The notes beneath the pieces were generated by a model that saw only the letters and a program-made list of their open reading frames with translations, did no database searches and was not told the DNA's origin. DNA of 37,467 bases from UHGV virus genome UHGV-0220213, one strand, 5' to 3'. This DNA comes from a virus. Shown piece by piece: positions 1-37,467 of this stretch (within the stretch, counting starts at the first letter, position 1; each line of letters starts with the position of its first letter). The position numbers were made by a program, and so were the translations under genes.

Positions 1-7
1 GTGCGCT

Positions 8-1996
8 ATGAAAGAATGGTATACAGCAAAAGAGTTGCTCGGTTTGGCAGGTTTACCAAAGCAAGCCACTAACATTACACGTAAGGCACAAAGAGAAGGC
101 TGGGAGTTCAGGCAGGTTGCAGGGACTAAAGGTGTATCATTTGAATTCAATATCAAATCATTCCCTGTCGCATTACGTGCTGAAATTCTGTTGCAACAAG
201 GGAGAATTGAAACAAGCCTGGGCCGTTTTGAAATCGCCCGCCCCACGCTGGAAGCCCATGATTATGATCGTGAGGTGCTGTGGAGCAAATGGGATAAAGC
301 CAGCGATTCCCAGCGCAGACTTGCTGAAAAATGGTTGCCTGCGGTTCAGGCTGCAGACGAAATGCTGAACCAGGGGATTTCAACGAAAACGGCTTTTGCG
401 ACCGTTGCAGGGCATTACCAGGTCAGCGCATCCACTTTGCGGGACAAGTATTACCAGGTACAGAAGTTTGCGAAGCCTGACTGGGCGGCTGCACTTGTTG
501 ATGGACGTGGTGCATCCCGTCGCAATGTTCACAAAAGTGAATTTGACGAGGATGCCTGGCAGTTTCTGATTGCAGATTATCTGCGACCGGAAAAACCCGC
601 CTTCCGCAAATGTTATGAGCGTCTGGAACTGGCAGCCCGCGAGCATGGCTGGAGTATTCCCTCCCGTGCCACGGCCTTTCGCCGGATTCAGCAACTGGAC
701 GAGGCAATGGTTGTTGCCTGTCGTGAAGGTGAACATGCACTGATGCATCTGATACCGGCACAGCAGCGAACTGTGGAACACCTGGACGCCATGCAGTGGA
801 TCAACGGCGACGGTTATCTGCATAACGTCTTTGTACGCTGGTTTAACGGTGATGTGATCCGTCCGAAAACATGGTTCTGGCAGGATGTGAAAACCCGAAA
901 AATTCTGGGCTGGCGCTGCGATGTGAGCGAGAACATTGATTCAATTCGCCTCTCGTTCATGGATGTTGTGACTCGCTACGGTATCCCGGAGGATTTTCAC
1001 ATCACCATTGATAACACCCGTGGTGCTGCGAATAAATGGCTGACGGGAGGCGCGCCCAATCGCTACCGCTTTAAGGTGAAAGAAGACGATCCAAAGGGAT
1101 TGTTTTTACTGATGGGTGCGAAAATGCACTGGACAAGCGTTGTTGCCGGTAAAGGCTGGGGCCAGGCAAAACCTGTTGAACGTGCTTTCGGTGTTGGTGG
1201 GCTTGAGGAATACGTTGATAAGCATCCGGCACTGGCTGGCGCATATACGGGGCCAAATCCGCAGGCAAAACCTGATAACTATGGCAACCGCGCTGTTGAT
1301 GCAGAGCTGTTTCTGAAAACCCTTGCCGAAGGTGTGGCGATGTTCAATGCCAGAACAGGCCGTGAAACAGAAATGTGCGGGGGCAAACTCTCGTTTGATG
1401 ATGTTTTCGAGCGTGAATACGCCAGAACGATTGTGCGTAAGCCAACCGAAGAACAAAAACGGATGCTGTTACTGCCTGCCGAGGCGGTGAACGTTTCACG
1501 CAAAGGCGAGTTTACGCTTAAAGTTGGCGGCTCCCTTAAAGGCGCGAAAAACGTTTATTACAACATGGCATTAATGAATGCCGGCGTGAAAAAAGTTGTG
1601 GTCAGGTTTGATCCGCAGCAGCTACACAGCACGGTTTATTGTTACACCCTGGACGGTCGGTTTATCTGTGAAGCGGAATGTCTGGCACCTGTTGCATTTA
1701 ATGATGCTGCGGCAGGCCGTGAATATCGCCGCCGCCAGAAACAACTGAAATCTGCAACTAAAGCAGCCATTAAGGCGCAGAAACAAATGGACGCGCTGGA
1801 AGTTGCTGAACTGCTGCCGCAGATAGCCGAACCAGCAGCACCAGAATCACGAATTGTTGGTATTTTCCGGCCTTCCGGTAATACGGAACGGGTGAAGAAT
1901 CAGGAGCGTGATGATGAATACGAAACTGAGCGTGATGAATATCTGAATCATTCGCTGGATATTCTGGAACAGAACAGACGTAAAAAAGCCATTTAA
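8..1996 (+). CDS. A: DDE transposase MuA (662 aa)
   Basis: Translation matches recalled Mu transposase A along most of its length; the N-terminal ~60 aa diverge from canonical Mu (D108-like). First gene of the window. Confidence 0.93.
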
Positions 1997-3460: not shown

Positions 3461-3730
3461 ATGGCAAAAGTAATCTTTGAATTTAACAATACAAGAAATA
3501 TTGAGTTTCAGGAAAATGGAGGTTTTGCCGTAAATATGAATGTGCGACTGGAAGAATCCTCACCTGAGGACCAGACCGGGCCACATGATGTAATGGCAGG
3601 CATCATCAAGAGCATGGCTCCTGAAATCATTAAAAAAGCGACCGAGGAGTTGTTGAAATCAGCCAGGGAGCTTGGGCTGGAAGCTGAGGGGAAATTATTC
3701 AGCTATAACCCGAATACAGCCAGACATTAA
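3461..3730 (+). CDS. Early-region hypothetical protein (89 aa)
   Basis: ORF with upstream SD; early-operon position. Confidence 0.6.
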   Translation: MAKVIFEFNNTRNIEFQENGGFAVNMNVRLEESSPEDQTGPHDVMAGIIKSMAPEIIKKATEELLKSARELGLEAEGKLFSYNPNTARH

Positions 3731-3750
3731 TTCGCAAAGGAACGCTGACA

Positions 3751-6343: not shown

Positions 6344-6655
6344 ATGAATAATGGTGTATTTTCAAAATCAGAAGAGCTTGCCGCCCTGCTGATTGCCGGT
6401 GGTTTGCCGAAAAAAGAAGTGCATGACTTTGTGAATTTTGTATATGAGCCGTCTCATGAAAAAGCTATTGATGAAGTCATGGCGTACCGGTTTGGCATTA
6501 TTGCTGAGTCACTGAGTCCTCACTGGATTATTGAAAATCTCCGCACTATTGCTGATGGTAACGATAAAGTGGCGGCTGTCGCCGCCCTTGATGTGCTGCA
6601 ACGTATGAACCGGGAACTATTCAATCCCGAGTTTCTTTTTAAGAAACGAGGTTAA
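6344..6655 (+). CDS. Early-region hypothetical protein (about 103 aa)
   Basis: SD AGGTGA five nt upstream of the ATG at 6344; last + strand ORF before the coding gap. Confidence 0.55.
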   Translation: MNNGVFSKSEELAALLIAGGLPKKEVHDFVNFVYEPSHEKAIDEVMAYRFGIIAESLSPHWIIENLRTIADGNDKVAAVAALDVLQRMNRELFNPEFLFKKRG

Positions 6656-7033
6656 CCACTGTTTGCCGACGTCTGTTACGAGCGTCATCGGGGCGTCGGC
6701 AAGGTCCTGTTTTATGCGCTCAAGAATGGGTTTTTGATGTAGTGCTTTCGCAAAATCATGACCATCTTGTGTAAGTCTGACACTGGTGCCTGAATATGAA
6801 TATCCGAGGCTTGTTGGGGTGAGACCAATGCTTTTTGCGGTGCCTGTTTCCAGATATCTGTTGCTGATAAAACCATTTTCAACCAGCAACAGAAGATGGA
6901 AAACCAGCTTCTGATGGCTGTCGCTGTGCCGCTGAGAACGATCCCAGCCGACATCTTCCAGTCGAATGAATGCGGTGTCGGCCTCCAGAAAAACATCAAA
7001 TATTCTGGCTATCTCGTCATAATCAATTTTCAT
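6617..7033 (-). CDS. Opposite-strand hypothetical protein (138 aa), function unknown
   Basis: Only ORF filling the ~400 bp + strand coding gap between 6655 and gemA; SD AAGGAA about 8 nt upstream of its ATG on the minus strand; balanced, protein-like composition. Confidence 0.5.
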   Translation of the reverse strand: MKIDYDEIARIFDVFLEADTAFIRLEDVGWDRSQRHSDSHQKLVFHLLLLVENGFISNRYLETGTAKSIGLTPTSLGYSYSGTSVRLTQDGHDFAKALHQKPILERIKQDLADAPMTLVTDVGKQWLTSFLKKKLGIE

Positions 7034-7063
7034 ATCTCATTCCTTAATATGAGAGGTGAGCAA

Positions 7064-14923: not shown

Positions 14924-16223
14924 TCTGGCGTATGCCGCACGCCTCCCGCCAAAGGAGGCTGTCGCGTATTTCCGCGCCAAAGGCTACAACATCACCTGGA
15001 ACTGGTACGAACAACTGGCAGACGCGCACGCACGCGCCTTTACCGTTGCCAAAGCCACCCGGATGGATGTACTGACCACAATCCGTGAGGAAGTGGAGCG
15101 GGCTGTCAGTGAAGGCATCACCCGTGAGGAATTTACCCGCACACTGGCCCCCCGGCTGCAAAAACTCGGATGGTGGGGAAAACAAATCATCGTGGATGCA
15201 GAGGGAAACGCGAAGGAAATCGAACTGGGCAGTCCGCGTCGTCTGGCAACCATTTATGACGTCAACACCCGTACAGCATATGCGGCGGGACGTTATGCGC
15301 AGATGATGAACACGGCGGACCTGTATCCGTTCTGGCAGTACGTTGTTGTCGAAGATGGCAGAACGCGCCCGGAACACCTCTTGCTGCGCAATATGGTTTT
15401 CCGGTGTGACGATATTTTCTGGCAGACGCATTACCCGCCGAACGGCTGGCGCTGCCGCTGTCGCGTCCGGGCGCTGTCTGCGGCCCGCATGAAAGAGCTG
15501 GGGTTACAGGTCAGTTATGGTGCGTCATTCATGAATACCCGCGAAGTGGATGCCGGTACGGATGAAAGCACCGGAGAGATTTTCCGCACATCGTCAACCA
15601 CGTTTGACAACGGTCGGGTAAAAATGACGCCGGATGTGGGCTGGTCATATAACCCCGGTTCGGCGGCATTTGGTACGGATCAGGCACTGATTCGAAAACT
15701 GGTGGAAGTTCGTGACGCGCAGCTGCGTGAGCAGGTTGTTCAGACGCTGAATAACAGCCGGGAGCGTCAGCTTGCTTTTTCCCTCTGGCTTAAACGCCTG
15801 GCAGGATCACGTCAGACCGGTCATGAAATCCGGGCGCTGGGGTTTATGACGGGATCCGTGGCTGAAGCCGTATATCAGCGCACCGGGAATATGCCAGCCC
15901 GTCTGCTTGTAATGAACGGGAAAAGTCTGGCGACCACTGCTGATGCCGCCCTGAAACCGGAAGATTTACAGCGTCTGCCGTCGCTGATGGCAAAACCACA
16001 GGCGGTATTGTGGGACAGGGAGAACCACCAGTTGCTGTATGTTGTGGCAACCCGTGACGGCACGGCCCGGATTGTGGTCAGAACATCACAGACAGTCGGC
16101 AGGCAGAATGACCGGGCGGATGTGCTGGTCAGTATCAGCCGCGTATCTGCACAGTCGCTTGAAGCCGCGATTGCTGACGGGATGATTGACATACTGGAGG
16201 GGCATGTGGAGGTGAATAAGTGA
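14904..16223 (+). CDS. F: Head morphogenesis protein F (Mu gp30-like)
   Basis: ATG at 14904 (alternative GTG at 14868); follows the portal gene. Confidence 0.8.
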   Translation: MPQQTIDLAYAARLPPKEAVAYFRAKGYNITWNWYEQLADAHARAFTVAKATRMDVLTTIREEVERAVSEGITREEFTRTLAPRLQKLGWWGKQIIVDAEGNAKEIELGSPRRLATIYDVNTRTAYAAGRYAQMMNTADLYPFWQYVVVEDGRTRPEHLLLRNMVFRCDDIFWQTHYPPNGWRCRCRVRALSAARMKELGLQVSYGASFMNTREVDAGTDESTGEIFRTSSTTFDNGRVKMTPDVGWSYNPGSAAFGTDQALIRKLVEVRDAQLREQVVQTLNNSRERQLAFSLWLKRLAGSRQTGHEIRALGFMTGSVAEAVYQRTGNMPARLLVMNGKSLATTADAALKPEDLQRLPSLMAKPQAVLWDRENHQLLYVVATRDGTARIVVRTSQTVGRQNDRADVLVSISRVSAQSLEAAIADGMIDILEGHVEVNK

Positions 16224-16690
16224 GTCTTGATATGAACGTTGCCGTGGATGTGCGACGTATTCAGCTTGCGCTGGATGAACTGGGAACCGTCACACATGAC
16301 CGCGTCATTCCCCGTGTGATGGCTGCGGCGCTGCTGTCATCCACGGAACAGGCATTTGAACGGCAGGCAGACCCGGATACAGGGAAAGGCTGGGAAGCGT
16401 GGAGCGATTCGTGGCTGGCATGGCGTCAGGATCATGGTTTTGTTCCGGGCAGTATCCTTACCCTGCATGGCGATCTGGCACGCAGCATTACCACCGATTA
16501 TGGACAGGATTATGCCCTGATTGGTTCGCCAAAAATTTATGCTGCCATTCATCAGTGGGGCGGTACACCCGATATGGCACCCCGCCCGGCAGGCGTTCCT
16601 GCGCGTCCTTATATGGGGCTGGATAAGACCGGGGAACAGGAAATTTTTGATGCCATCAGAAAACGCGTCAGCGCCGCTCTGAGGCAATAA
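16220..16690 (+). CDS. G: Virion morphogenesis protein G (156 aa)
   Basis: 156 aa; overlaps the F stop (GTGA); Mu G position. Confidence 0.8.
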   Translation: MSLDMNVAVDVRRIQLALDELGTVTHDRVIPRVMAAALLSSTEQAFERQADPDTGKGWEAWSDSWLAWRQDHGFVPGSILTLHGDLARSITTDYGQDYALIGSPKIYAAIHQWGGTPDMAPRPAGVPARPYMGLDKTGEQEIFDAIRKRVSAALRQ

Positions 16691-16886
16691 ACAGAATCAG
16701 GCATAAAATCAGCCGCACAGATTTTTTAAAACGCGCCACGGGATTTTTAAACCGGTATTTAACGGTGTATGAATCCCGTTTTATCTTCCTTCCACTTTCT
16801 TTCTCCAGTACTCAAATAGCATAACCCCAGATTTTCCCGCACCTCCCGCAAACTGACTGCTCACAAACCATGATGAGCAGCAGGAC
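16691..16886. promoter_or_regulatory. Central G-I intergenic region: expected strong gyrase site (SGS) and late promoter PI
   Basis: 196 bp non-coding region between G and I, near the genome centre, as in Mu. Assigned by position; site sequence not verified. Confidence 0.5.
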
Positions 16887-17972
16887 ATGAAAAAACACGC
16901 GATTGGCATTGCCGCACTGAGTGCGCTGTCCATTGACGATGACGGCTGGTGCCAGCTATTGCCTGCCGGTCATTTCAGTGCCCGTGATGGTCGTCCGTTT
17001 GATGTGACAGGCGGTCAGGGGTGGTTCATCGACGGTGAGATTGCCGGGCGTCTGGTTGAAGGCGTTCGCGCGCTCAACCAGGACGTGCTGATTGATTACG
17101 AGCATAACCAGCTACGTAAGGACAAAGGATTACCCCCGGAACAACTCGTCGCGGCTGGCTGGTTTAACGCCGATGAAATGCAGTGGCGTGAAGGTGAAGG
17201 ATTATTTATCCACCCACGCTGGACGGCGGCGGCACAGCAGCGCATCGATGACGGCGAATTTGGTTATCTCTCTGCGGTTTTTCCGTATGACACCGCCACC
17301 GGTGCGGTGCTGCAAATCCGCCTTGCTGCGCTGACCAATGACCCCGGTGCCACCGGCATGAAAAAGCTGACCGCACTGGCGGCAGACCTTCCCGACATCC
17401 TTCAACAGGAGAACAAACCCATGAATGAAACGCTGCGCAAGCTGCTTGCGCGTCTTGGGGTGACGGTCCCCGAAAATGCAGACATCACCGATGAACAGGC
17501 CAGCGCGGCCCTGAGTGCGTTTGATGCGCTCGAAACAGATGCCGGAAAAGTGGCGTCGTTATCCGCCGAACTGGAAAAGGCACAGAACGCCGCCGTTGAC
17601 CTGACGAAATACGTCCCGGTGGAAAGCTACAACGCCGTGCTTGATGAACTGGCACAGGCCAAAGCACAAAGCGCCACTGCCAGCCTGAGCGCCGTTCTGG
17701 ACAAGGCGGAGCAGGAAGGCCGCATTTTCAAAAGCGAACGTACCTATCTGGAACAGCTTGGCGGTCAGATTGGCGTGGCGGCACTGTCGGCACAGCTTGA
17801 GAAAAAACAGCCCATCGCTGCGTTATCTGCCATGCAGACCACCACAGCGAAAATTCCGTCGCAGGAAAAACCGGCGGTGGCGGTGCTGTCTGCTGATGAA
17901 CAGGCAGCAGTGAAGGCGCTCGGCATTACAGAGGCTGAGTATCTGAAAATGAAACAGGAACAAGAAAAATGA
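16887..17972 (+). CDS. I: Head protease/scaffold I (361 aa); scaffold Z expected as an in-frame C-terminal product
   Basis: 361 aa as Mu I; Ala/Glu-rich coiled-coil C-terminal half typical of scaffold. Confidence 0.85.
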   Translation: MKKHAIGIAALSALSIDDDGWCQLLPAGHFSARDGRPFDVTGGQGWFIDGEIAGRLVEGVRALNQDVLIDYEHNQLRKDKGLPPEQLVAAGWFNADEMQWREGEGLFIHPRWTAAAQQRIDDGEFGYLSAVFPYDTATGAVLQIRLAALTNDPGATGMKKLTALAADLPDILQQENKPMNETLRKLLARLGVTVPENADITDEQASAALSAFDALETDAGKVASLSAELEKAQNAAVDLTKYVPVESYNAVLDELAQAKAQSATASLSAVLDKAEQEGRIFKSERTYLEQLGGQIGVAALSAQLEKKQPIAALSAMQTTTAKIPSQEKPAVAVLSADEQAAVKALGITEAEYLKMKQEQEK

Positions 17973-18886
17973 TTGTCACCCCGGCATCCATTAAAGCCCT
18001 GATGACCTCCTGGCGTAAGGATTTTCAGGGCGGTCTTGAAGACGCCCCGTCGCAGTACAGCAAAATTGCAATGGTGGTGAACTCTTCCACCCGCAGTAAT
18101 ACCTATGGCTGGCTGGGTAAATTCCCGACCCTGAAAGAATGGGTGGGTAAGCGAACCATTCAGCAAATGGAAGCGCATGGCTACTCCATCGCCAATAAAA
18201 CGTTTGAAGGCACAGTGGGTATTTCCCGTGATGACTTCGAGGATGACAATCTGGGTATTTATGCGCCGATTTTTCAGGAGATGGGCCGTTCTGCGGCAGT
18301 TCAGCCGGATGAGCTGATTTTTAAACTTCTGAAAGATGGCTTTACCCAGCCCTGCTATGACGGTCAGAACTTCTTCGACAAGGAGCATCCGGTATATCCG
18401 AATGTGGACGGCACGGGCGACGCAACGAATACCTCCAACATCGTTGAACAGGACAGCTTCAGTGGTCTGCCATTCTATCTGCTGGACTGCTCCCGCGCAG
18501 TCAAACCGCTGATTTTCCAGGAGCGCCGCAAACCCGAACTGGTCGCACGTACCCGTATCGATGACGACCACGTTTTTATGGATAACGAGTTCCTGTTTGG
18601 TGCCAGCGCCCGCCGTGCTGCCGGTTACGGCTTCTGGCAGATGGCTGTCGCGGTAAAAGGCGATCTGACGCTGGATAACCTCTGGAAGGGCTGGCAACTG
18701 ATGCGTGCGTTTGAAGGTGATGGCGGTAAGAAGCTGGGCCTGAAGCCGACACATATCGTTGTACCGGTCGGGCTGGAAAAAGCCGCAGAGCAACTGCTTA
18801 ACCGTGAACTGTTCGCGGATGGCAATACCACCGTCTCCAACGAGATGAAGGGCAAGCTGCAACTGGTTGTCGCTGACTACCTGTAA
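17969..18886 (+). CDS. T: Major head (capsid) protein T (305 aa)
   Basis: 305 aa as Mu T; ATGA overlap with I; followed by a terminator-like hairpin. Confidence 0.88.
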   Translation: MIVTPASIKALMTSWRKDFQGGLEDAPSQYSKIAMVVNSSTRSNTYGWLGKFPTLKEWVGKRTIQQMEAHGYSIANKTFEGTVGISRDDFEDDNLGIYAPIFQEMGRSAAVQPDELIFKLLKDGFTQPCYDGQNFFDKEHPVYPNVDGTGDATNTSNIVEQDSFSGLPFYLLDCSRAVKPLIFQERRKPELVARTRIDDDHVFMDNEFLFGASARRAAGYGFWQMAVAVKGDLTLDNLWKGWQLMRAFEGDGGKKLGLKPTHIVVPVGLEKAAEQLLNRELFADGNTTVSNEMKGKLQLVVADYL

Positions 18887-30289: not shown

Positions 30290-31755
30290 TGTTTTATATT
30301 GATAACGACAGCGGCGTAACCGTCATGCCGCCCGTATCCGCCCAGCGTAGTGCTATCGTTCGCTGGTTTTCAGAAGGTGACGGGAATAATGTTATCACAT
30401 GGCCCGGCATGGACTGGTTTAATATTGTGCAGGCGGAGTTATTAAACACGCTGGAAGAAGCCGGTATTCAACCGGATAAAACAAAATTAAACCAGCTTGC
30501 ACTGTCCATTAAAGCCATTATGAGCAATAACGCGCTGCTGATAAAAAATAACCTCAGCGAAATTAAAACTGCCGGGGCATCAGCACAGCGTACAGCACGT
30601 GAAAATCTGGATATCTATGATGCCAGCCTGAACAAAAAAGGACTCGTTCAGCTAACCAGTGCCACTGACAGCCCCAGTGAAACGCTGGCAGTCACCGCAA
30701 AAGCGGTGAAAATTGCGATGGATAATGCCAATGCCCGTCTGGCAAAAGACCGGAACGGAGCAGATATTCCCAATAAGCCGCTGTTTATCCAAAACCTCGG
30801 TTTACAGGAAACGGTAAATCAGGCTTCTGGCGCATTACAGAAAAACCAGAACGGCGCAGATATTCCGGGGAAAGATACCTTCACCAAAAATATTGGGGCC
30901 TGCCGCGCATATAGCGCATGGCTGAATATTGGTGGCGATAGTCAGGTCTGGACAACCGCGCAATTTATTTCGTGGCTGGAGAGTCAGGGAGCATTTAACC
31001 ATCCTTACTGGATGTGCAAAGGCTCATGGGCTTATGCAAATAATAAGGTCATTACAGATACAGGTTGCGGAAATATTTGTCTTGCAGGTGCTGTGGTGGA
31101 AGTTATTGGCACTCGCGGCGCAATGACCATACGCGTTACTACGCCGAGCACGTCCAGCGGTGGCGGAATTACTAACGCTCAATTCACTTATATTAATCAT
31201 GGTGATGCTTATGCTCCTGGCTGGCGACGAGACTACAACACGAAAAATCAACAACCTGCATTTGCTTTAGGGCAAACAGGAAGCACTGTCGGAAATGATA
31301 AAGCTGTTGGCTGGAACTGGAATAGCGGGGTCTATAACGCAAATATTAGTGGCGCATCGACATTAATCCTCCACTTCAATATGAATACGGGGAGTTGCCC
31401 TGCTGCACAGTTCCGCGTGAATTACAGAAATGGCGGTATCTTTTATCGTTCAGCGCGTGATGGTTATGGCTTTGAAGCTGACTGGTCAGAGTTTTACACC
31501 ACAACCCGCAAACCCTCTGCGGGAGATGTTGGTGCATATACGCAGGCAGAATGTAACTCAAGGTTTATTACAGGTATTCGCCTTGGCGGTCTGTCATCTG
31601 TTCAGACATGGAATGGTCCCGGCTGGTCTGACAGGTCAGGTTATGTCGTTACGGGTTCAGTTAACGGAAACCGTGATGAATTAATTGATACAACTCAGGC
31701 AAGGCCAATTCAGTATTGCATTAATGGGACTTGGTATAACGCGGGAAGTATTTAA
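30289..31755 (+). CDS. S: Tail fibre protein S: constant part Sc fused to variable part Sv inside the G segment (488 aa)
   Basis: ORF crosses the left G inverted repeat at 30785-30818, which encodes QNLGLQETVN; C-terminus resembles that of S'. Confidence 0.85.
   Translation: MFYIDNDSGVTVMPPVSAQRSAIVRWFSEGDGNNVITWPGMDWFNIVQAELLNTLEEAGIQPDKTKLNQLALSIKAIMSNNALLIKNNLSEIKTAGASAQRTARENLDIYDASLNKKGLVQLTSATDSPSETLAVTAKAVKIAMDNANARLAKDRNGADIPNKPLFIQNLGLQETVNQASGALQKNQNGADIPGKDTFTKNIGACRAYSAWLNIGGDSQVWTTAQFISWLESQGAFNHPYWMCKGSWAYANNKVITDTGCGNICLAGAVVEVIGTRGAMTIRVTTPSTSSGGGITNAQFTYINHGDAYAPGWRRDYNTKNQQPAFALGQTGSTVGNDKAVGWNWNSGVYNANISGASTLILHFNMNTGSCPAAQFRVNYRNGGIFYRSARDGYGFEADWSEFYTTTRKPSAGDVGAYTQAECNSRFITGIRLGGLSSVQTWNGPGWSDRSGYVVTGSVNGNRDELIDTTQARPIQYCINGTWYNAGSI
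30785..30818. repeat. Left 34-bp inverted repeat of the G segment (gix-type Gin crossover site)
   Basis: TTATCCAAAACCTCGGTTTACAGGAAACGGTAAA matches the reverse complement of 33704-33737 with one mismatch. Confidence 0.9.
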
Positions 31756-31757
31756 TT

Positions 31758-32291
31758 ATGATGCACTTAAAAAACATTACCGCTGGTAATCCTAAAACAG
31801 TGGAGCAGTACCAGCTAACAAAGCAATTTAACATTAAGTGGCTTTATTCAGATGATGGAAAAAACTGGTATGAGGAACAAAAGAATTTCCAGCCAGACAC
31901 TTTGAAAATGGTCTATGACCATAACGGCGTTATTATTTGTATTGAAAAGGATGTTTCAGCAATTAATCCGGAAGGCGCAAGCGTCGTTGAATTACCTGAT
32001 ATTACAGCAAATCGCCGGGCTGATATTTCGGGGAAATGGTTGTTCAAAGATGGCGTAGTGATAAAGCGAACTTATACCGAGGAAGAGCAGAGGCAACAAG
32101 CGGAAAATGAAAAGCAAAGCCTGTTGCAACTTGTCAGGGATAAAACCCAGCTATGGGACTCACAGCTACGGCTGGGCATCATTTCCGACGAGAATAAACA
32201 AAAATTAACCGAGTGGATGCTCTATGCGCAGAAAGTCGAATCTACAGACACCTCCAGCCTGCCAGTAACGTTTCCCGAACAACCAGAATGA
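31758..32291 (+). CDS. U: Tail fibre assembly chaperone U (177 aa)
   Basis: Paralogous to the minus-strand U' (shared N-terminal LKNI..GNPKT..EQYQLTK). Confidence 0.85.
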   Translation: MMHLKNITAGNPKTVEQYQLTKQFNIKWLYSDDGKNWYEEQKNFQPDTLKMVYDHNGVIICIEKDVSAINPEGASVVELPDITANRRADISGKWLFKDGVVIKRTYTEEEQRQQAENEKQSLLQLVRDKTQLWDSQLRLGIISDENKQKLTEWMLYAQKVESTDTSSLPVTFPEQPE

Positions 32292-32319
32292 GAGAAGGCC
32301 CGATATTGGGCCTTAATTT

Positions 32320-32847
32320 TTACTCAGGCTTTTGTGGCCATTCGGGATTTGCTGTATCCACACGGCTGACCAGAACGCTGTAGCGTTCCCATGACTCCAG
32401 TCGTGTGCGTTCCTCATCCGTCGCCATATTCAGCCTGACAGCGCGTTCCAGTGGCTGAATAACGCTTTCAGCTTCAGAAAGCAACGCGACCTTTTGTGAT
32501 TCGGCCTGTTGTTGCTGTTCGTCTGCTGTATAAATCCGCTTAACCACAGTTCCGTCCTTAAACATCCACTTCCCTGAATCATCGGCACGACGATTGGCTG
32601 TTATATCTGGAATCTCAACGACACTAAAGCCTTCGGGATTAAGCGTTGAGGCATCTTTGGTGATGGCAACAATAATATTATTTTCGTCGTATACAATCTT
32701 TATGGTGTCGTCCTGAAAGTTATTTACTTCCTCATACCAGTTTTTACCGTCTTCGGACCATAACCAGATAACATCAAAATTCTTTGTTAGCTGATATTGT
32801 TCTTTTGTTTTTGGATTTCCGGACTTAATATTTTTTAAATGCTGCAT
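32320..32847 (-). CDS. Alternative tail fibre assembly chaperone U' (175 aa)
   Basis: Minus-strand paralogue of U inside the G segment. Confidence 0.85.
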
Positions 32848-32850
32848 AAT

Positions 32851-33703
32851 TTACACCTGTGCGACGTTATACCATGTGCCATTGATGTATTTTTGTATTG
32901 GTCTGAAGATGGCTTCATCATCGCCATCTACTTCACCAATGATTCTTAATCCGGTAATTGCGTGTCCGGCTTTTTCATAACGACCACCACGCGCCATCAA
33001 TTGAACAACACGCGTACCCAGGCGAACATCTTTTACATAGCGTGAATCAAAATTCCCCCAGTTGCTGGGCTGCATCTGACCGTTAACAGAAAATATTACC
33101 GAGTTATCTGTATTTCGCTGGCTATAGAAATGCCATCCTGCCTCATCGCCTAACTCTGCAACTACTGGACGGGTTGAAGCACCCCATAAATTAAACGTTG
33201 CATTCTTTGTGGAGTTGTTGGAGCTGGATAGCGTGAATTTTTTACCATCCCCGGCCTGAATATTTTTAAAAGCAATAGCCACTCCATTCTGAAAGCGGAA
33301 TACACGCTGACTATTAGCATAAACATCCAGAATACCGTCTCCATTCTGTTTAAATCCGGTGTCATTATCACCAAGAACAATAGAGCTACCACCTAACGCA
33401 TTCGTCGAACCAACTCCAAGACTGCCATTAATGACAGCATTAACAAGAATATTTAGTGCATCCCATTTCAGCGTCATCAGGTCTTTTGTTGTGGTGCTCT
33501 GGCGGCTTCTCCATTTGAAATATTCATTGCCGTTGTCGCCTGTTTCAAACCACATGTATGAATCAGTGTCACCATCGGCATCATTTTTAAATCCAATCTT
33601 CGCCCAGTCAGTATTTCGAATCCAGGCAAGGATTGAGTCATTTTCAAAAGTAAGCCCACCGGACAAGGTATCGCCATTTTTTTGCACGGCGTTACCAGCC
33701 CTG
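32851..33703 (-). CDS. Sv', alternative variable part of the tail fibre (no own promoter; fuses to Sc after inversion)
   Basis: Minus-strand frame stays open from 32851 through the right inverted repeat, where it also encodes NLGLQETVN; C-terminus homologous to S. Confidence 0.8.
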
Positions 33704-33737
33704 TTTACCGTTTCCTGTAAACCGAGGTTTTAGATAA
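33704..33737. repeat. Right 34-bp inverted repeat of the G segment (gix-type site)
   Basis: TTTACCGTTTCCTGTAAACCGAGGTTTTAGATAA, reverse complement of the left repeat with one mismatch. Confidence 0.9.
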
Positions 33738-35349: not shown

Positions 35350-35417
35350 TGAAGCGCGAAAGCTAAAGTTTTCGCATTTATCGTGAAACGCTTTCGCGTT
35401 TTTCGTGCGCCGCTTCA
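35341..35417. repeat. Mu right end (attR) with three transposase-binding repeats (R3, R2, R1)
   Basis: TGTTTCATTTGAAGCGCGAAAG (35341-35362), then two opposite-orientation copies ending ...CGTGCGCCGCTTCA at 35417. Confidence 0.85.
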
Positions 35418-35740
35418 GCGAACACAATACACAATGCAGAAACCAGTAGCGTATTGAGCAGGCCGACAATAAAAACGCGTCCGTAAGTGTCGCCTTGCTG
35501 ATAATCAATCAAATGCTGAACGATGCCAAAACCGGCCCCGCGGTCAAGAAAAGCAAATCCTGATGTTATGCCGCGATTACTGAGATTCGTTACAGTGTTG
35601 TGAAATAACCAACCAATAATGCCGACAACAGCAACAACGGCAAGGATCTGGAATAACCAGGCGCGAACCGTAGGGTTGGCAAAAGAGAGTGAGCCTTTAA
35701 CGGTTGAGCGGCGATGAGACATAGAAACCTCGGAAAGCAT
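35418..35740 (-). pseudogene. yhdX: 5' fragment of an amino-acid ABC transporter permease gene (yhdX-like) interrupted by the prophage
   Basis: Minus-strand ORF starts at 35740 with TM-rich permease N-terminus and runs into the phage end, terminating in phage DNA at 35378; only about 107 codons are host-encoded. Confidence 0.7.
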
Positions 35741-35789
35741 AACGCTGAAGAGAGCGCCGCCGTAGCGACGCTCGTTACCTCACACCGAC

Positions 35790-36815
35790 TTAACGCACGG
35801 GCGGCGCGTACTGAATACCGCCGTTATTCCAGAGATTATTTTGCCCACGTTTAATTTTCAGCGGGCTTTCTGAACCTACGTTACGCTCGAAAATTTCCGA
35901 GTAGTTACCCACCTGTTTGATGATGTTAAAGGCCCATTTATTATCCAGCTTCAGATCCTTGCCGTAATCGCCTTCTTTACCCAGCAGATGTGCCATATCA
36001 GGCGTTGCTGGATTAGCCGCTTTTTCATCGACGTTCTGGGAATTGATGCCCATCTCTTCAGCATTCAGCATGGCGAAAAGCGTCCAGCGTACAATCGAGA
36101 ACCATTCATCATCGCCACGACGAACTACCGGCCCAAGCGGTTCTTTAGAGATAACTTCCGGTAAGACAATCCATTCAGCTGGGTTGCTTAATTTGATGCG
36201 CAGGGCATACAGTTGTGATTGATCCGAGGCTAGCGTATCGCAGCGACCAGATTCCAGTGCCTTCGCTGATTCGTCAGAGCGATCGAAAGTCACTGGTGTG
36301 TACTTCATATTGTTTGCCTTGAAGTAATCGGCAACATTGAGTTCAGTATCAGTACCCGCCTGAATACAGACGGTAGCGCCATCCAGTTCTTTCGCGCTTT
36401 TTAGCCCCGCTTTATCGTGCGTCAGGAAGCCAATGCCGTCGTAATAAGTGACGCCAGTAAATGCCATTCCCATCCCGGCATCGCGAGATGAAGTCCAGGT
36501 CGTATTACGGGAGAGCAAATCCACCTCCCCTGACTGTAAAGCGGTGAAGCGTTCTTTTGCAGTGAGCGGGGTATATTTCACTTTCGTATCGTCACCGAAT
36601 ACAGCAGCGGCAACGCCACGACAAACATCTACATCAATACCTGAAAACTTACCGTCAGCATCGGCATAAGAGAACCCAGGTAATCCATCACTGATCCCGC
36701 ATTGCACAAAACCTTTTTTCTGAACGGCATCAAGCGTCGCGCCAGCATGCGCCTGATTTGCAACGGCAAGCAGCACGCTGGCGGCAGCCAGTGTGGCTAT
36801 CATCATCTTTTTCAT
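35790..36815 (-). CDS. yhdW: Periplasmic amino-acid-binding protein of an ABC transporter (341 aa)
   Basis: Signal peptide MKKMMIATLAAASVLLAVANQAHA; solute-binding protein features; upstream of the permease gene. Confidence 0.75.
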   Translation of the reverse strand: MKKMMIATLAAASVLLAVANQAHAGATLDAVQKKGFVQCGISDGLPGFSYADADGKFSGIDVDVCRGVAAAVFGDDTKVKYTPLTAKERFTALQSGEVDLLSRNTTWTSSRDAGMGMAFTGVTYYDGIGFLTHDKAGLKSAKELDGATVCIQAGTDTELNVADYFKANNMKYTPVTFDRSDESAKALESGRCDTLASDQSQLYALRIKLSNPAEWIVLPEVISKEPLGPVVRRGDDEWFSIVRWTLFAMLNAEEMGINSQNVDEKAANPATPDMAHLLGKEGDYGKDLKLDNKWAFNIIKQVGNYSEIFERNVGSESPLKIKRGQNNLWNNGGIQYAPPVR

Positions 36816-37212
36816 AATGCTTCCTGTGAGGCGAAAATTATCGTTATAGGACGTTTGGGAAACGTCTTTTACCTGTCTGTGGCCATCCTCTTATAAGCAA
36901 AAGTAGTGCCAGCTTTTGCGCACGATTTCGCGTCGCAATAAGCTGAGTGTAGACAGGAAATAATAAAAACAGCGCCCCGCAATGGTGCGAAAATGAAACA
37001 TGCGCCACATTTTGGCGCAAAATATTTACGCGTTTTTTACTAAGCAGAATAATGATTGTTAGCGTGAGTATATTTCTGGTGGGATGTGTGAAAGTTAAAT
37101 TGATGCGTTATTTCGAAAGCAGCGAAATAACGTGATATAACATGCTAAATCAGCAGGGAATTACCCAGCAGAATATAGCAATATTTTATCTTATGGAAAG
37201 ATACTGTATCGT

Positions 37213-37240
37213 TAAAAAGAGCGCGGAGCTCCGCGCCCTG
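37213..37240 (-). terminator. Rho-independent terminator of yhdV
   Basis: Perfect palindrome GCGCGGAGCTCCGCGC followed by TTTTT on the minus strand, immediately after the yhdV stop. Confidence 0.7.
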
Positions 37241-37245
37241 TTTAG

Positions 37246-37467
37246 TTATTTCGACAGAGCGATGATCCCCATCGTCAGGCCAGCAACAGCTGCTGCCCCG
37301 CCGGCAATAGCCCCAGCCGTTTCCCAGTTATCCTGAGTCGTGCCTTTCATACAGGTATTGGTGTGAACCAGACGACCCTGGTCGTCATAAACCGGAACGC
37401 AGGGCGAATCGTGAGCACAGCCCGCCAGCAATGCGGTGAGCAATGTCACAGGAATTAATCTTTTCAT
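37246..37467 (-). CDS. yhdV: Small lipoprotein (73 aa)
   Basis: Lipobox LLAGC after a signal peptide; Gly/Ala-rich C-terminal TM segment; start codon is the last triplet of the window. Confidence 0.7.
   Translation of the reverse strand: MKRLIPVTLLTALLAGCAHDSPCVPVYDDQGRLVHTNTCMKGTTQDNWETAGAIAGGAAAVAGLTMGIIALSK

What the first reader, a model, noticed from the sequence alone, without database searches (positions are those of the whole stretch)
16691..16886. Central G-I intergenic region as the expected strong gyrase site
This is one of very few sizeable non-coding gaps in the late region and lies about 16.8 kb from the A start, near the genome centre between G and I. In Mu this is where the strong gyrase site required for efficient replicative transposition is located, together with the late promoter PI. 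It contains a 7-bp inverted repeat (CGGGATT ... AATCCCG) with a 26-bp spacer. Assignment is positional; I cannot verify the gyrase site from sequence.
Basis: partly seen in the sequence, partly recalled or inferred. Interest (0 to 1): 0.4.

Follow-up and report, generated by a model that had tools for sequence, protein, structure and literature searches.

The report
Phage Mu's known central gyrase site
This non-coding gap is the well-studied strong gyrase-binding site of bacteriophage Mu, followed by a terminator-like hairpin and the late promoter P_I, sitting in a natural Mu prophage of E. coli; it is a correct identification of something already known.

Summary
The window is a Mu-type prophage in an E. 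coli chromosome: 94-99% identical to phage Mu, Mu right end at 35417, host DNA beyond.

The G-I gap is exactly 16691-16886. It is 195/196 identical to Mu 17860-18055. The Mu record annotates there a gyrase cut site (window 16710^16711), a predicted terminator (16739-16784) and late promoter P_I (16808-16874). The 133-bp "Mu SGS" fragment used in published gyrase binding assays matches window 16643-16775 at 132/133.

- The roughly 150-bp site starts about 45 bp inside gene G, so it is not confined to the gap.
- The 7-bp inverted repeat is real, but alone it is not beyond chance. It is the outer stem of a longer hairpin that overlaps the essential right arm of the gyrase site, and its sequence is not conserved in relatives.

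What is conserved in Mu-like phages with G proteins only 50-85% identical is a roughly 175-215 bp gap holding helically phased T/A tracts. This matches the published wrapping model.

Verdict: confirmed, already known, low interest.

The parts
16220..16690 (+). Gene G (virion morphogenesis / neck protein, 156 aa). Its last ~45 nt also form the left arm of the gyrase site.
   Evidence: ORF list. Matches Mu_31 / G in AF083977.
16644..16794 (.). Strong gyrase site (SGS), about 150 bp. Boundaries are uncertain by about 4 bp because the exact cleavage centre could not be fixed here.
   Evidence: Published anatomy is -65..+85 around the cleavage centre (PMC6463007), mapped through the Mu cut-site annotation. 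The 133-bp published SGS fragment matches 16643-16775 at 132/133. 195/196 identity to Mu in the gap.
16644..16683 (.). SGS left arm (-65..-26), entirely within the 3' end of gene G. Reported to be dispensable.
   Evidence: Coordinates inferred from PMC6463007. Dispensability from PMC10052514 and PMC13284261.
16684..16733 (.). SGS core, the gate (G) segment that gyrase cleaves. The annotated cut is at 16710^16711. The 4-bp stagger is most likely 16707-16710, alternatively 16711-16714. The first T/A tract, TTTTTTAAAA, is at 16722-16731.
   Evidence: AF083977 and NC_000929 'gyrase cut site' 17879^17880. Register of the published 133-bp fragment against the Topo-Seq consensus. Numbering in PMC6463007 Fig. 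7 legend.
16734..16794 (.). SGS right arm (+26..+85), reported to be the essential arm that wraps the GyrA C-terminal domain and presents the T segment. It holds phased T/A tracts TTTTTAAA (16744-16751) and TTTAA (16758-16762). The only difference from Mu in the gap (16792, C here, T in Mu) is at its distal edge.
   Evidence: Identical to Mu over 16734-16791. 18-nt direct repeat with 21-nt spacing, 16716-16733 / 16737-16754. A/T periodicity of the 40-mer at 16738 ranks 18 of 37,428. The tracts are conserved in divergent relatives. Role of the arm from PMC10052514, PMC11626157, PMC13284261.
16738..16788 (+). Probably the intrinsic terminator of the lys-to-G late transcript. It overlaps the SGS right arm.
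   Evidence: Inverted repeat I1. RNA fold -19.8 kcal/mol, z -3.2. TransTermHP terminator in AF083977 at 17908-17953 = window 16739-16784. The tool's simple terminator scan does not call it. Most other lineages examined have a different hairpin followed by a T-rich run downstream of the tract array.
16808..16874 (+). Late promoter P_I, dependent on the Mu C activator. The shared late-promoter box CATAACCCC is at 16820-16828. A -10-like CAAACT at 16849-16854 is inferred from the alignment.
   Evidence: AF083977 promoter feature 17977-18043. The box occurs at the same offset in the window's P_lys, P_I, P_P and P_mom regions. No sigma-70 consensus promoter is present, as expected for an activator-dependent promoter.
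16887..17972 (+). Gene I (head protease / scaffold, 361 aa), the first gene of the P_I transcript.
   Evidence: ORF list. Mu_32 in AF083977.

Best explanation
The G-I gap of this Mu-type prophage, together with the last ~45 bp of gene G, carries the Mu strong gyrase site (SGS), followed by a terminator-like hairpin and the C-dependent late promoter P_I.

Mechanism, taken from published work on the essentially identical Mu sequence. Host DNA gyrase binds this site with unusually high affinity. It cleaves the gate segment near 16707-16711. It wraps the right arm (about 16734-16794) around one GyrA C-terminal domain, so that this arm is presented as the T segment. The result is fast, processive negative supercoiling. 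Because the site lies midway between the prophage ends, the growing plectoneme has the SGS at its apex and brings the left and right ends, 37 kb apart, together. This allows transpososome assembly, replicative transposition after induction, and the stable 'Mu domain' of the prophage.

Shown here: sequence identity to the characterised site, its position, the phased T/A tracts, and their conservation in relatives. Inferred from the literature: gyrase binding, cleavage and the biological role in this particular prophage.
For: - Identity to Mu. The gap is 195/196 identical to Mu and 100% identical to two Muvirus isolates.
- Annotation. The Mu records annotate the gyrase cut site, terminator and late promoter in this stretch.
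- Experimental fragment. Window 16643-16775 matches the published SGS fragment at 132/133. At the one differing base (16712) the window carries the wild-type Mu base.
- Position. The window is a Mu prophage with its right end at 35417, which places the site near 49% of its length.
- Right-arm signals in the window. There is an 18-nt direct repeat 21 nt apart. A/T periodicity is in the top 0.05% of 40-mers in the window. The triple tract pattern occurs once in the window, against 0.01 expected.
- Conservation. Spacers from Mu-like phages with G proteins 50-85% identical mostly keep a 175-215 bp gap. They keep T(n)RA(n) tracts spaced about 21 and 11-12 nt apart, while the GC-rich spacers and the cleavage core diverge.
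- O157:H7 lineage. The O157:H7-type spacer retains the Mu right-arm stretch GATTTT..AACC.GTATTTAACGG but not the core. PMC10052514 reports that the SGS of the Mu-like prophage in the O157:H7 Sakai genome is the only other site that supports Mu replication.
- Within-Mu variation. Among 13 distinct Mu-type sequences there are 8 variable sites in the 50-bp core and 1 in the proximal 40 bp of the right arm.
- Function. Literature: PMC10052514, PMC3820752, PMC6379681, PMC6463007, PMC11626157, PMC13284261.
Against: - No experiment exists on this particular prophage.
- A crude stand-in for the Topo-Seq gyrase motif did not single out the site. The stand-in was a strong/weak-base correlation with the published consensus string. 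The real weight matrix (table DS10) was cut from the stored supplement.
- The dominant A/T period in the right arm came out near 12 nt, the upper edge of the scanned range, not 10.5-10.75 nt.
- The prophage left end is not in the window, so centrality rests on an assumed 1.2-1.35 kb left-end segment.
- The exact cleavage stagger (16707-16710 or 16711-16714) could not be settled from the sources held.
Confidence: 0.95

Rival explanations
1. The gap is only ordinary operon punctuation: a terminator for the lys-to-G transcript plus the P_I promoter. The T/A tracts would be promoter-upstream or terminator-context sequence with no gyrase role in this prophage.
For: - The hairpin folds well and the Mu record annotates it as a terminator.
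- The late-promoter box is present.
- Most divergent lineages examined have some hairpin followed by a T-rich run.
Against: - Terminator and promoter are real, but they do not exclude the gyrase site. The sequence is 132/133 identical to the fragment shown experimentally to bind gyrase, and to be cleaved in vivo as part of a longer insert.
- The cut site lies upstream of the hairpin.
- The hairpin sequence turns over between lineages while the phased tracts stay fixed.
Confidence: 0.03
2. The conserved phased TTTRAA array is mainly a binding platform for a nucleoid or phage protein (Fis, IHF, HU or similar) that helps organise the Mu domain. On this view it is not a gyrase-wrapping signal.
For: - The array is repeated, helically phased and conserved.
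- Saha et al. report that the Mu domain also depends on IHF, Fis and HU (PMC3820752).
Against: - Cryo-EM of gyrase on a 217-bp Mu SGS fragment shows the right arm wrapped on the GyrA C-terminal domain, with AT repeats facing the protein (PMC11626157).
- Removing the right arm abolishes the preferential gyrase activity in vitro with purified enzyme (PMC13284261 citing Oram 2006).
- I did not test any binding-site model for these proteins. The two readings are not mutually exclusive.
Confidence: 0.07
3. The gap encodes a small protein or a small RNA, as suggested by the 'gene 31.5' annotated in phage D108 and a reverse-strand ORF annotated in Mu_3F6.
For: - D108 record GQ357916 annotates a 42-aa CDS at 17914-18042.
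- Record LR595867 annotates a minus-strand CDS overlapping the G stop codon.
Against: - The D108 ATG reads ATA in this window and in Mu.
- There is no + strand ORF of 20 aa or more in the gap.
- The minus-strand ORFs are short (23-50 aa), and the longer ones run into G or I.
- No Rfam family matches.
Confidence: 0.02

Closest known systems
[quoted passage not shown] 2006)
   Same: - Essentially the same sequence: 195/196 in the gap, 132/133 against the experimental fragment.
- The same flanking genes and the same central position.
- The same downstream terminator-like hairpin and P_I promoter.
   Different: - One substitution at the distal edge of the right arm: 16792 is C here and T in Mu. 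C is also found in D108, Tongde and Mu_3F6.
- The host element is a natural prophage. The 5' end of its transposase gene does not match Mu, and its G segment is inverted relative to the Mu reference.
G-I spacer of the Mu-like prophage lineage found in E. coli O157:H7 genomes; PMC10052514 reports that the Sakai Mu-like prophage SGS can replace the Mu SGS
   Same: - The same G-I location and a similar gap length (about 176 bp).
- It keeps the right-arm stretch GATTTT..AACC.GTATTTAACGG and the phased T/A tracts.
   Different: - The core and cleavage region and the first tract are not conserved.
- The G protein is only about 54% identical.
- I did not confirm that the matching O157:H7 prophages are the Sakai prophage itself.
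Strong gyrase sites of plasmids pSC101 and pBR322
   Same: They are preferred gyrase binding and cleavage sites that score highly with the Topo-Seq motif (PMC6379681).
   Different: - They have no sequence relationship to this site.
- They are reported not to support Mu replication when placed at the Mu centre (PMC10052514).
- The pSC101 site binds strongly but slows the enzyme.
Chromosomal gyrase cleavage sites and BIME-2/REP elements of E. coli
   Same: They share the indirect-readout logic: a cleavage core flanked by arms with roughly 10.5-10.75 bp GC/AT periodicity that wrap the GyrA C-terminal domains.
   Different: - They have much lower affinity.
- They are not linked to a transposable element.
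- They have no requirement for a central position.

Membership tests
Mu strong gyrase site (SGS) | Sequence matches the experimentally characterised Mu SGS | tested here: met
   195/196 identity to Mu 17860-18055. 132/133 identity to the 133-bp fragment of PMC6379681, and at the differing base the window carries the wild-type Mu base.
Mu strong gyrase site (SGS) | Located between genes G and I, near the centre of a Mu-type transposable prophage | tested here: met
   G stop at 16690 and I start at 16887. The cut site is 18.7 kb from the right end at 35417. The left end is outside the window, so the 49% figure assumes a 1.2-1.35 kb left segment.
Mu strong gyrase site (SGS) | Right arm with an extended set of helically phased bending signals | tested here: met
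   Right arm identical to Mu up to +83. 21-nt direct repeat. A/T periodicity in the top 0.05% of 40-mers in the window, though the period is near 12 nt. Tracts conserved across lineages.
Mu strong gyrase site (SGS) | Single strong quinolone-induced gyrase cleavage with a 4-bp stagger at the defined position | not testable with these tools
   Only the GenBank cut-site annotation could be mapped, to window 16710^16711.
Mu strong gyrase site (SGS) | High score with the Topo-Seq gyrase position-weight matrix | tested here: inconclusive
   The matrix (table DS10) was cut from the stored supplement. A proxy built from the consensus string did not rank the site highly. The paper itself reports that the Mu SGS is the top-scoring site in the Mu genome.
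Mu strong gyrase site (SGS) | Deletion delays replicative transposition and end synapsis | not testable with these tools
   Literature only: PMC10052514 and PMC3820752.
Mu C-dependent late promoter (P_I) | Shared late-promoter box upstream of a weak -10, with no -35 | tested here: met
   CATAACCCC at 16820-16828, at the same offset as in the window's P_lys, P_P and P_mom regions. No sigma-70 consensus match. Maps onto the AF083977 promoter feature.
Mu C-dependent late promoter (P_I) | C-dependent transcript start upstream of gene I | not testable with these tools
   Needs transcript mapping after induction.
Rho-independent terminator | GC-rich hairpin immediately followed by a U-run | tested here: inconclusive
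   Hairpin of -19.8 kcal/mol, z -3.2, followed by UUUUAUCUU. TransTermHP calls it in AF083977. The simple scan here does not call it, because the stem is interrupted and the enclosed loop region is long.

The most novel reading that the evidence does not exclude
The helically phased T(n)RA(n) tract array just downstream of gene G may be a portable signature of the strong gyrase site across enterobacterial Mu-like phages. In Mu the array is TTTTTTAAAA-N12-TTTTTAAA-N6-TTTAA. It is kept while the cleavage core and the terminator hairpin turn over.

If so, strong gyrase sites evolve by preserving the wrapping arm rather than the cut site, and they could be predicted from sequence in uncharacterised transposable phages. 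The idea extends the published right-arm model. It is not a new mechanism, and part of it may already be in Oram et al. 2006, which I could not read.
Probability: 0.5. Interest if true: 0.3.

Novelty: already known. Interest (0 to 1): 0.1.

Why it matters
The Mu SGS is the textbook example of a sequence that recruits host gyrase to fold a 37-kb mobile element so that its two ends meet. It is also the standard substrate for gyrase structural and single-molecule work. Finding it intact in a natural E. coli prophage confirms that the prophage carries the cis element needed for efficient replicative transposition. It adds no new biology.

The one modestly useful by-product is the comparative picture. 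The gap length and the phased T/A tracts are conserved across Mu-like phages whose proteins have diverged to about 50% identity. The cleavage core is not conserved. This supports the wrapping-arm model on evolutionary grounds and gives a simple search pattern for candidate gyrase sites in related phages.

Tried and rejected
- Topo-Seq motif proxy. I scored the window with a strong/weak-base correlation and with exact matches to the published 133-bp consensus string. The SGS did not stand out. The real weight matrix (DS10) was cut from the stored supplement, so this test says nothing either way.
- Periodicity script. The first version timed out. The vectorised version ran.
- Primary SGS papers. 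Oram 2006 (PMC1347280) and Pato 1990 (PMC55030) are not held, and a further id, PMC94057, which I tried from memory, is not held either. The site anatomy therefore comes from later open-access papers. The legend that gives the nuB mutations and the bonded bases reads ambiguously, so I could not assign the G-to-C difference at 16712 to nuB103 with certainty, nor fix the 4-bp stagger.
- Genome-contig scan with the single G protein. It returned only 2 loci. An alignment-based scan of viral contigs returned 68.
- Source genome. No complete E. coli genome in the collection contains this prophage-host junction, so the prophage left end and the exact centre could not be measured.
- Simple promoter and terminator scans found nothing in 16400-17100. 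This is expected for an activator-dependent promoter and a hairpin with an interrupted stem.
- Rfam search found nothing.
- Small-ORF reading (D108 gene 31.5). Rejected because its start codon is absent here and in Mu.
- Caveat on the triple-tract pattern. I defined it after seeing the alignments. Its presence in the spacers is therefore circular. Only its absence elsewhere carries weight.

Full report
**What the window is.** The window aligns to phage Mu (AF083977) from window 196 to 35417, corresponding to Mu 1519 to 36717, in blocks of 94-99% identity. The Mu right end (…GCGCCGCTTCA) is at 35417. The 2,050 bases beyond it match no phage record. They are 100% identical to an E. coli chromosomal amino-acid ABC transporter region that includes yhdX. 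The window is therefore a Mu-type prophage in E. coli, cut just upstream of gene A, whose ATG is at position 8. No complete E. coli genome in the collection has this junction.

**Check of the observation.** Gene G ends at 16690 and gene I starts at 16887, so the gap is exactly 16691-16886. In the Mu annotation it is the largest non-coding gap of the late region, 196 bp against 94 bp for the next. The inverted repeat CGGGATT (16739-45) / AATCCCG (16772-78) with a 26-bp spacer is present. Alone it is not significant: 22% of shuffles contain at least one such repeat. It is the outer stem of a longer imperfect hairpin with 20-nt arms, 80% complementary. That hairpin folds as RNA at -19.8 kcal/mol, z = -3.2, and is followed by TTTTATCTT.

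**Identity.**
- The gap matches 13 Muvirus records: 100% to two Yersinia-propagated isolates, 99.5% to Mu, 98% to D108.
- It differs from Mu at one base, 16792 (C here, T in Mu). D108, Tongde and Mu_3F6 also have C there.
- AF083977 annotates a gyrase cut site at 17879^17880 (window 16710^16711). NC_000929 carries the same cut site.
- The 133-bp "Mu SGS" fragment that Sutormin et al. used for gyrase gel-shift and competition assays matches window 16643-16775 at 132/133. It comes from supplementary table S2 of PMC6379681.
- The differing base, 16712, is G in the window and in wild-type Mu. The fragment was derived from plasmid pMP1000. PMC6463007 describes a plasmid it calls 'pM1000' as carrying the nuB103 allele. 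I take the difference to be that laboratory allele but could not confirm it.

**Anatomy.** PMC6463007 describes the SGS as about 150 bp: a left arm at -65..-26, a core (gate segment) at -25..+25, and a right arm at +26..+85 whose first 40 nt are essential. Two things place the cleavage centre at about 16708/16709: the register of the published fragment against the Topo-Seq consensus, and the "+3 A / -3 T" numbering in that paper. A centre at 16712/16713 is not excluded.
- the left arm is 16644-16683, inside gene G;
- the core is 16684-16733;
- the right arm is 16734-16794.

**Signals in the sequence.**
- An 18-nt direct repeat is spaced 21 nt apart: CACAGATTTTTTAAAACG / CACGGGATTTTTAAACCG.
- The 40-mer starting at 16738 ranks 18th of 37,428 for A/T periodicity, though the best period is about 12 nt, at the edge of the scanned range.
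- The pattern TTTRA-N13-17-TTRAA-N5-9-TTTRA occurs once in the window on either strand, at 16725, against 0.01 expected in shuffles. I defined this pattern after seeing the alignments.

**Comparison with relatives.** I collected G-I spacers from 71 loci, 64 of them distinct in sequence, whose G proteins are 50-99% identical to the window's.
- The gap is about 175-215 bp in nearly all of them.
- T(n)RA(n) tracts sit at conserved spacings of about 21 and 11-12 nt, with a further tract about 11 nt on in some lineages. These spacings are whole numbers of helical turns.
- The GC-rich stretches between the tracts, the cleavage core and the hairpin all differ between lineages.
- All 39 occurrences of the triple pattern in 211 kb of related DNA lie within 120 nt after the G stop codon.
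- The roughly 54%-identity lineage lacks the strict pattern. It aligns with Mu best in the right arm, at GATTTT..AACC.GTATTTAACGG.
- That lineage is about 94-95% identical to prophages in O157:H7 genomes. PMC10052514 states that the SGS of the Sakai Mu-like prophage is the only other tested site that supports Mu replication. I did not confirm that the matching prophages are the Sakai one.
- Among 13 distinct Mu-type sequences, 8 of the 50 core positions vary and 1 of the 40 proximal right-arm positions.
- Most lineages examined have a hairpin of their own followed by a T-rich run, downstream of the tract array. This is consistent with a positionally conserved terminator.

**Promoter.** The box CATAACCCC at 16820-16828 recurs at the same offset in the window's counterparts of P_lys, P_P and P_mom.

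**Mechanism (from the literature).**
- Gyrase binds the SGS very tightly and supercoils processively (PMC6463007).
- The right arm wraps one GyrA C-terminal domain and supplies the T segment (PMC11626157; PMC13284261).
- Central placement is needed for timely end synapsis and replication (PMC10052514).
- The site is also needed for the prophage "Mu domain" (PMC3820752).

None of this was tested on this prophage. It is inferred from near-identity.

**Verdict.** The feature is already known, and interest is low. The comparative tract conservation is a small addition consistent with the published right-arm model.

Noticed in passing
window 1-195: Gene A (transposase) starts at ATG position 8 ([18 protein letters not shown]...). 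Its first ~190 nt have no DNA match to Mu A, while the rest is 99% identical. This suggests a different N-terminal operator/enhancer-binding domain, possibly D108-like, and hence a different immunity type.
   Followed up: no
window 30785-33737: The invertible G segment is in the opposite orientation to the Mu reference: window 30785-32850 equals Mu 35037-32972 reversed, and 33458-33737 equals Mu 32233-31954 reversed. Window 32851-33457 has no megablast match to Mu, so one tail-fibre variable part has diverged.
   Followed up: no
window 3494-3735 and 6354-7063: Two blocks in the early region have no match to Mu. This is mosaic variation among the small early genes.
   Followed up: no
window 35417-37467: The Mu right end is at 35417. 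The flank is E. coli chromosomal DNA of an amino-acid ABC transporter region that includes yhdX, 100% identical to several genomes. No complete genome in the collection carries this insertion.
   Followed up: partly
window 16696-16824 (D108 GQ357916 17914-18042): The D108 record annotates a 42-aa 'gene 31.5' across the gyrase site. Its ATG reads ATA in this window and in Mu, and no + strand ORF of 20 aa or more exists in the gap. It is probably an annotation artefact.
   Followed up: yes
loci L008, L010, L011, L028-L079, first ~120 nt after the G stop codon: Mu-like phages with G proteins 50-85% identical mostly keep a 175-215 bp G-I gap with helically phased TTTTRAA tracts spaced about 21 and 11-12 nt apart. 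The cleavage core and the hairpin sequences turn over. Exceptions: L039 has a 278-bp gap and L049 a 676-bp gap.
   Followed up: partly
window 16835-16880: In the P_I promoter and leader there is a direct repeat TCCCGCA x2 (16835-41, 16844-50). There is also an inverted repeat CTGCTCA/TGAGCAG (16857-63 / 16874-80) that ends just before the gene I start codon and could pair in the leader RNA around the ribosome-binding site.
   Followed up: no
window 16712: The widely used laboratory SGS fragment (from plasmid pMP1000) differs from this natural prophage and from wild-type Mu by G to C at this position, next to or inside the 4-bp cleavage stagger. Natural Mu-type variants also differ at 16714 and 16715.
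   Followed up: partly
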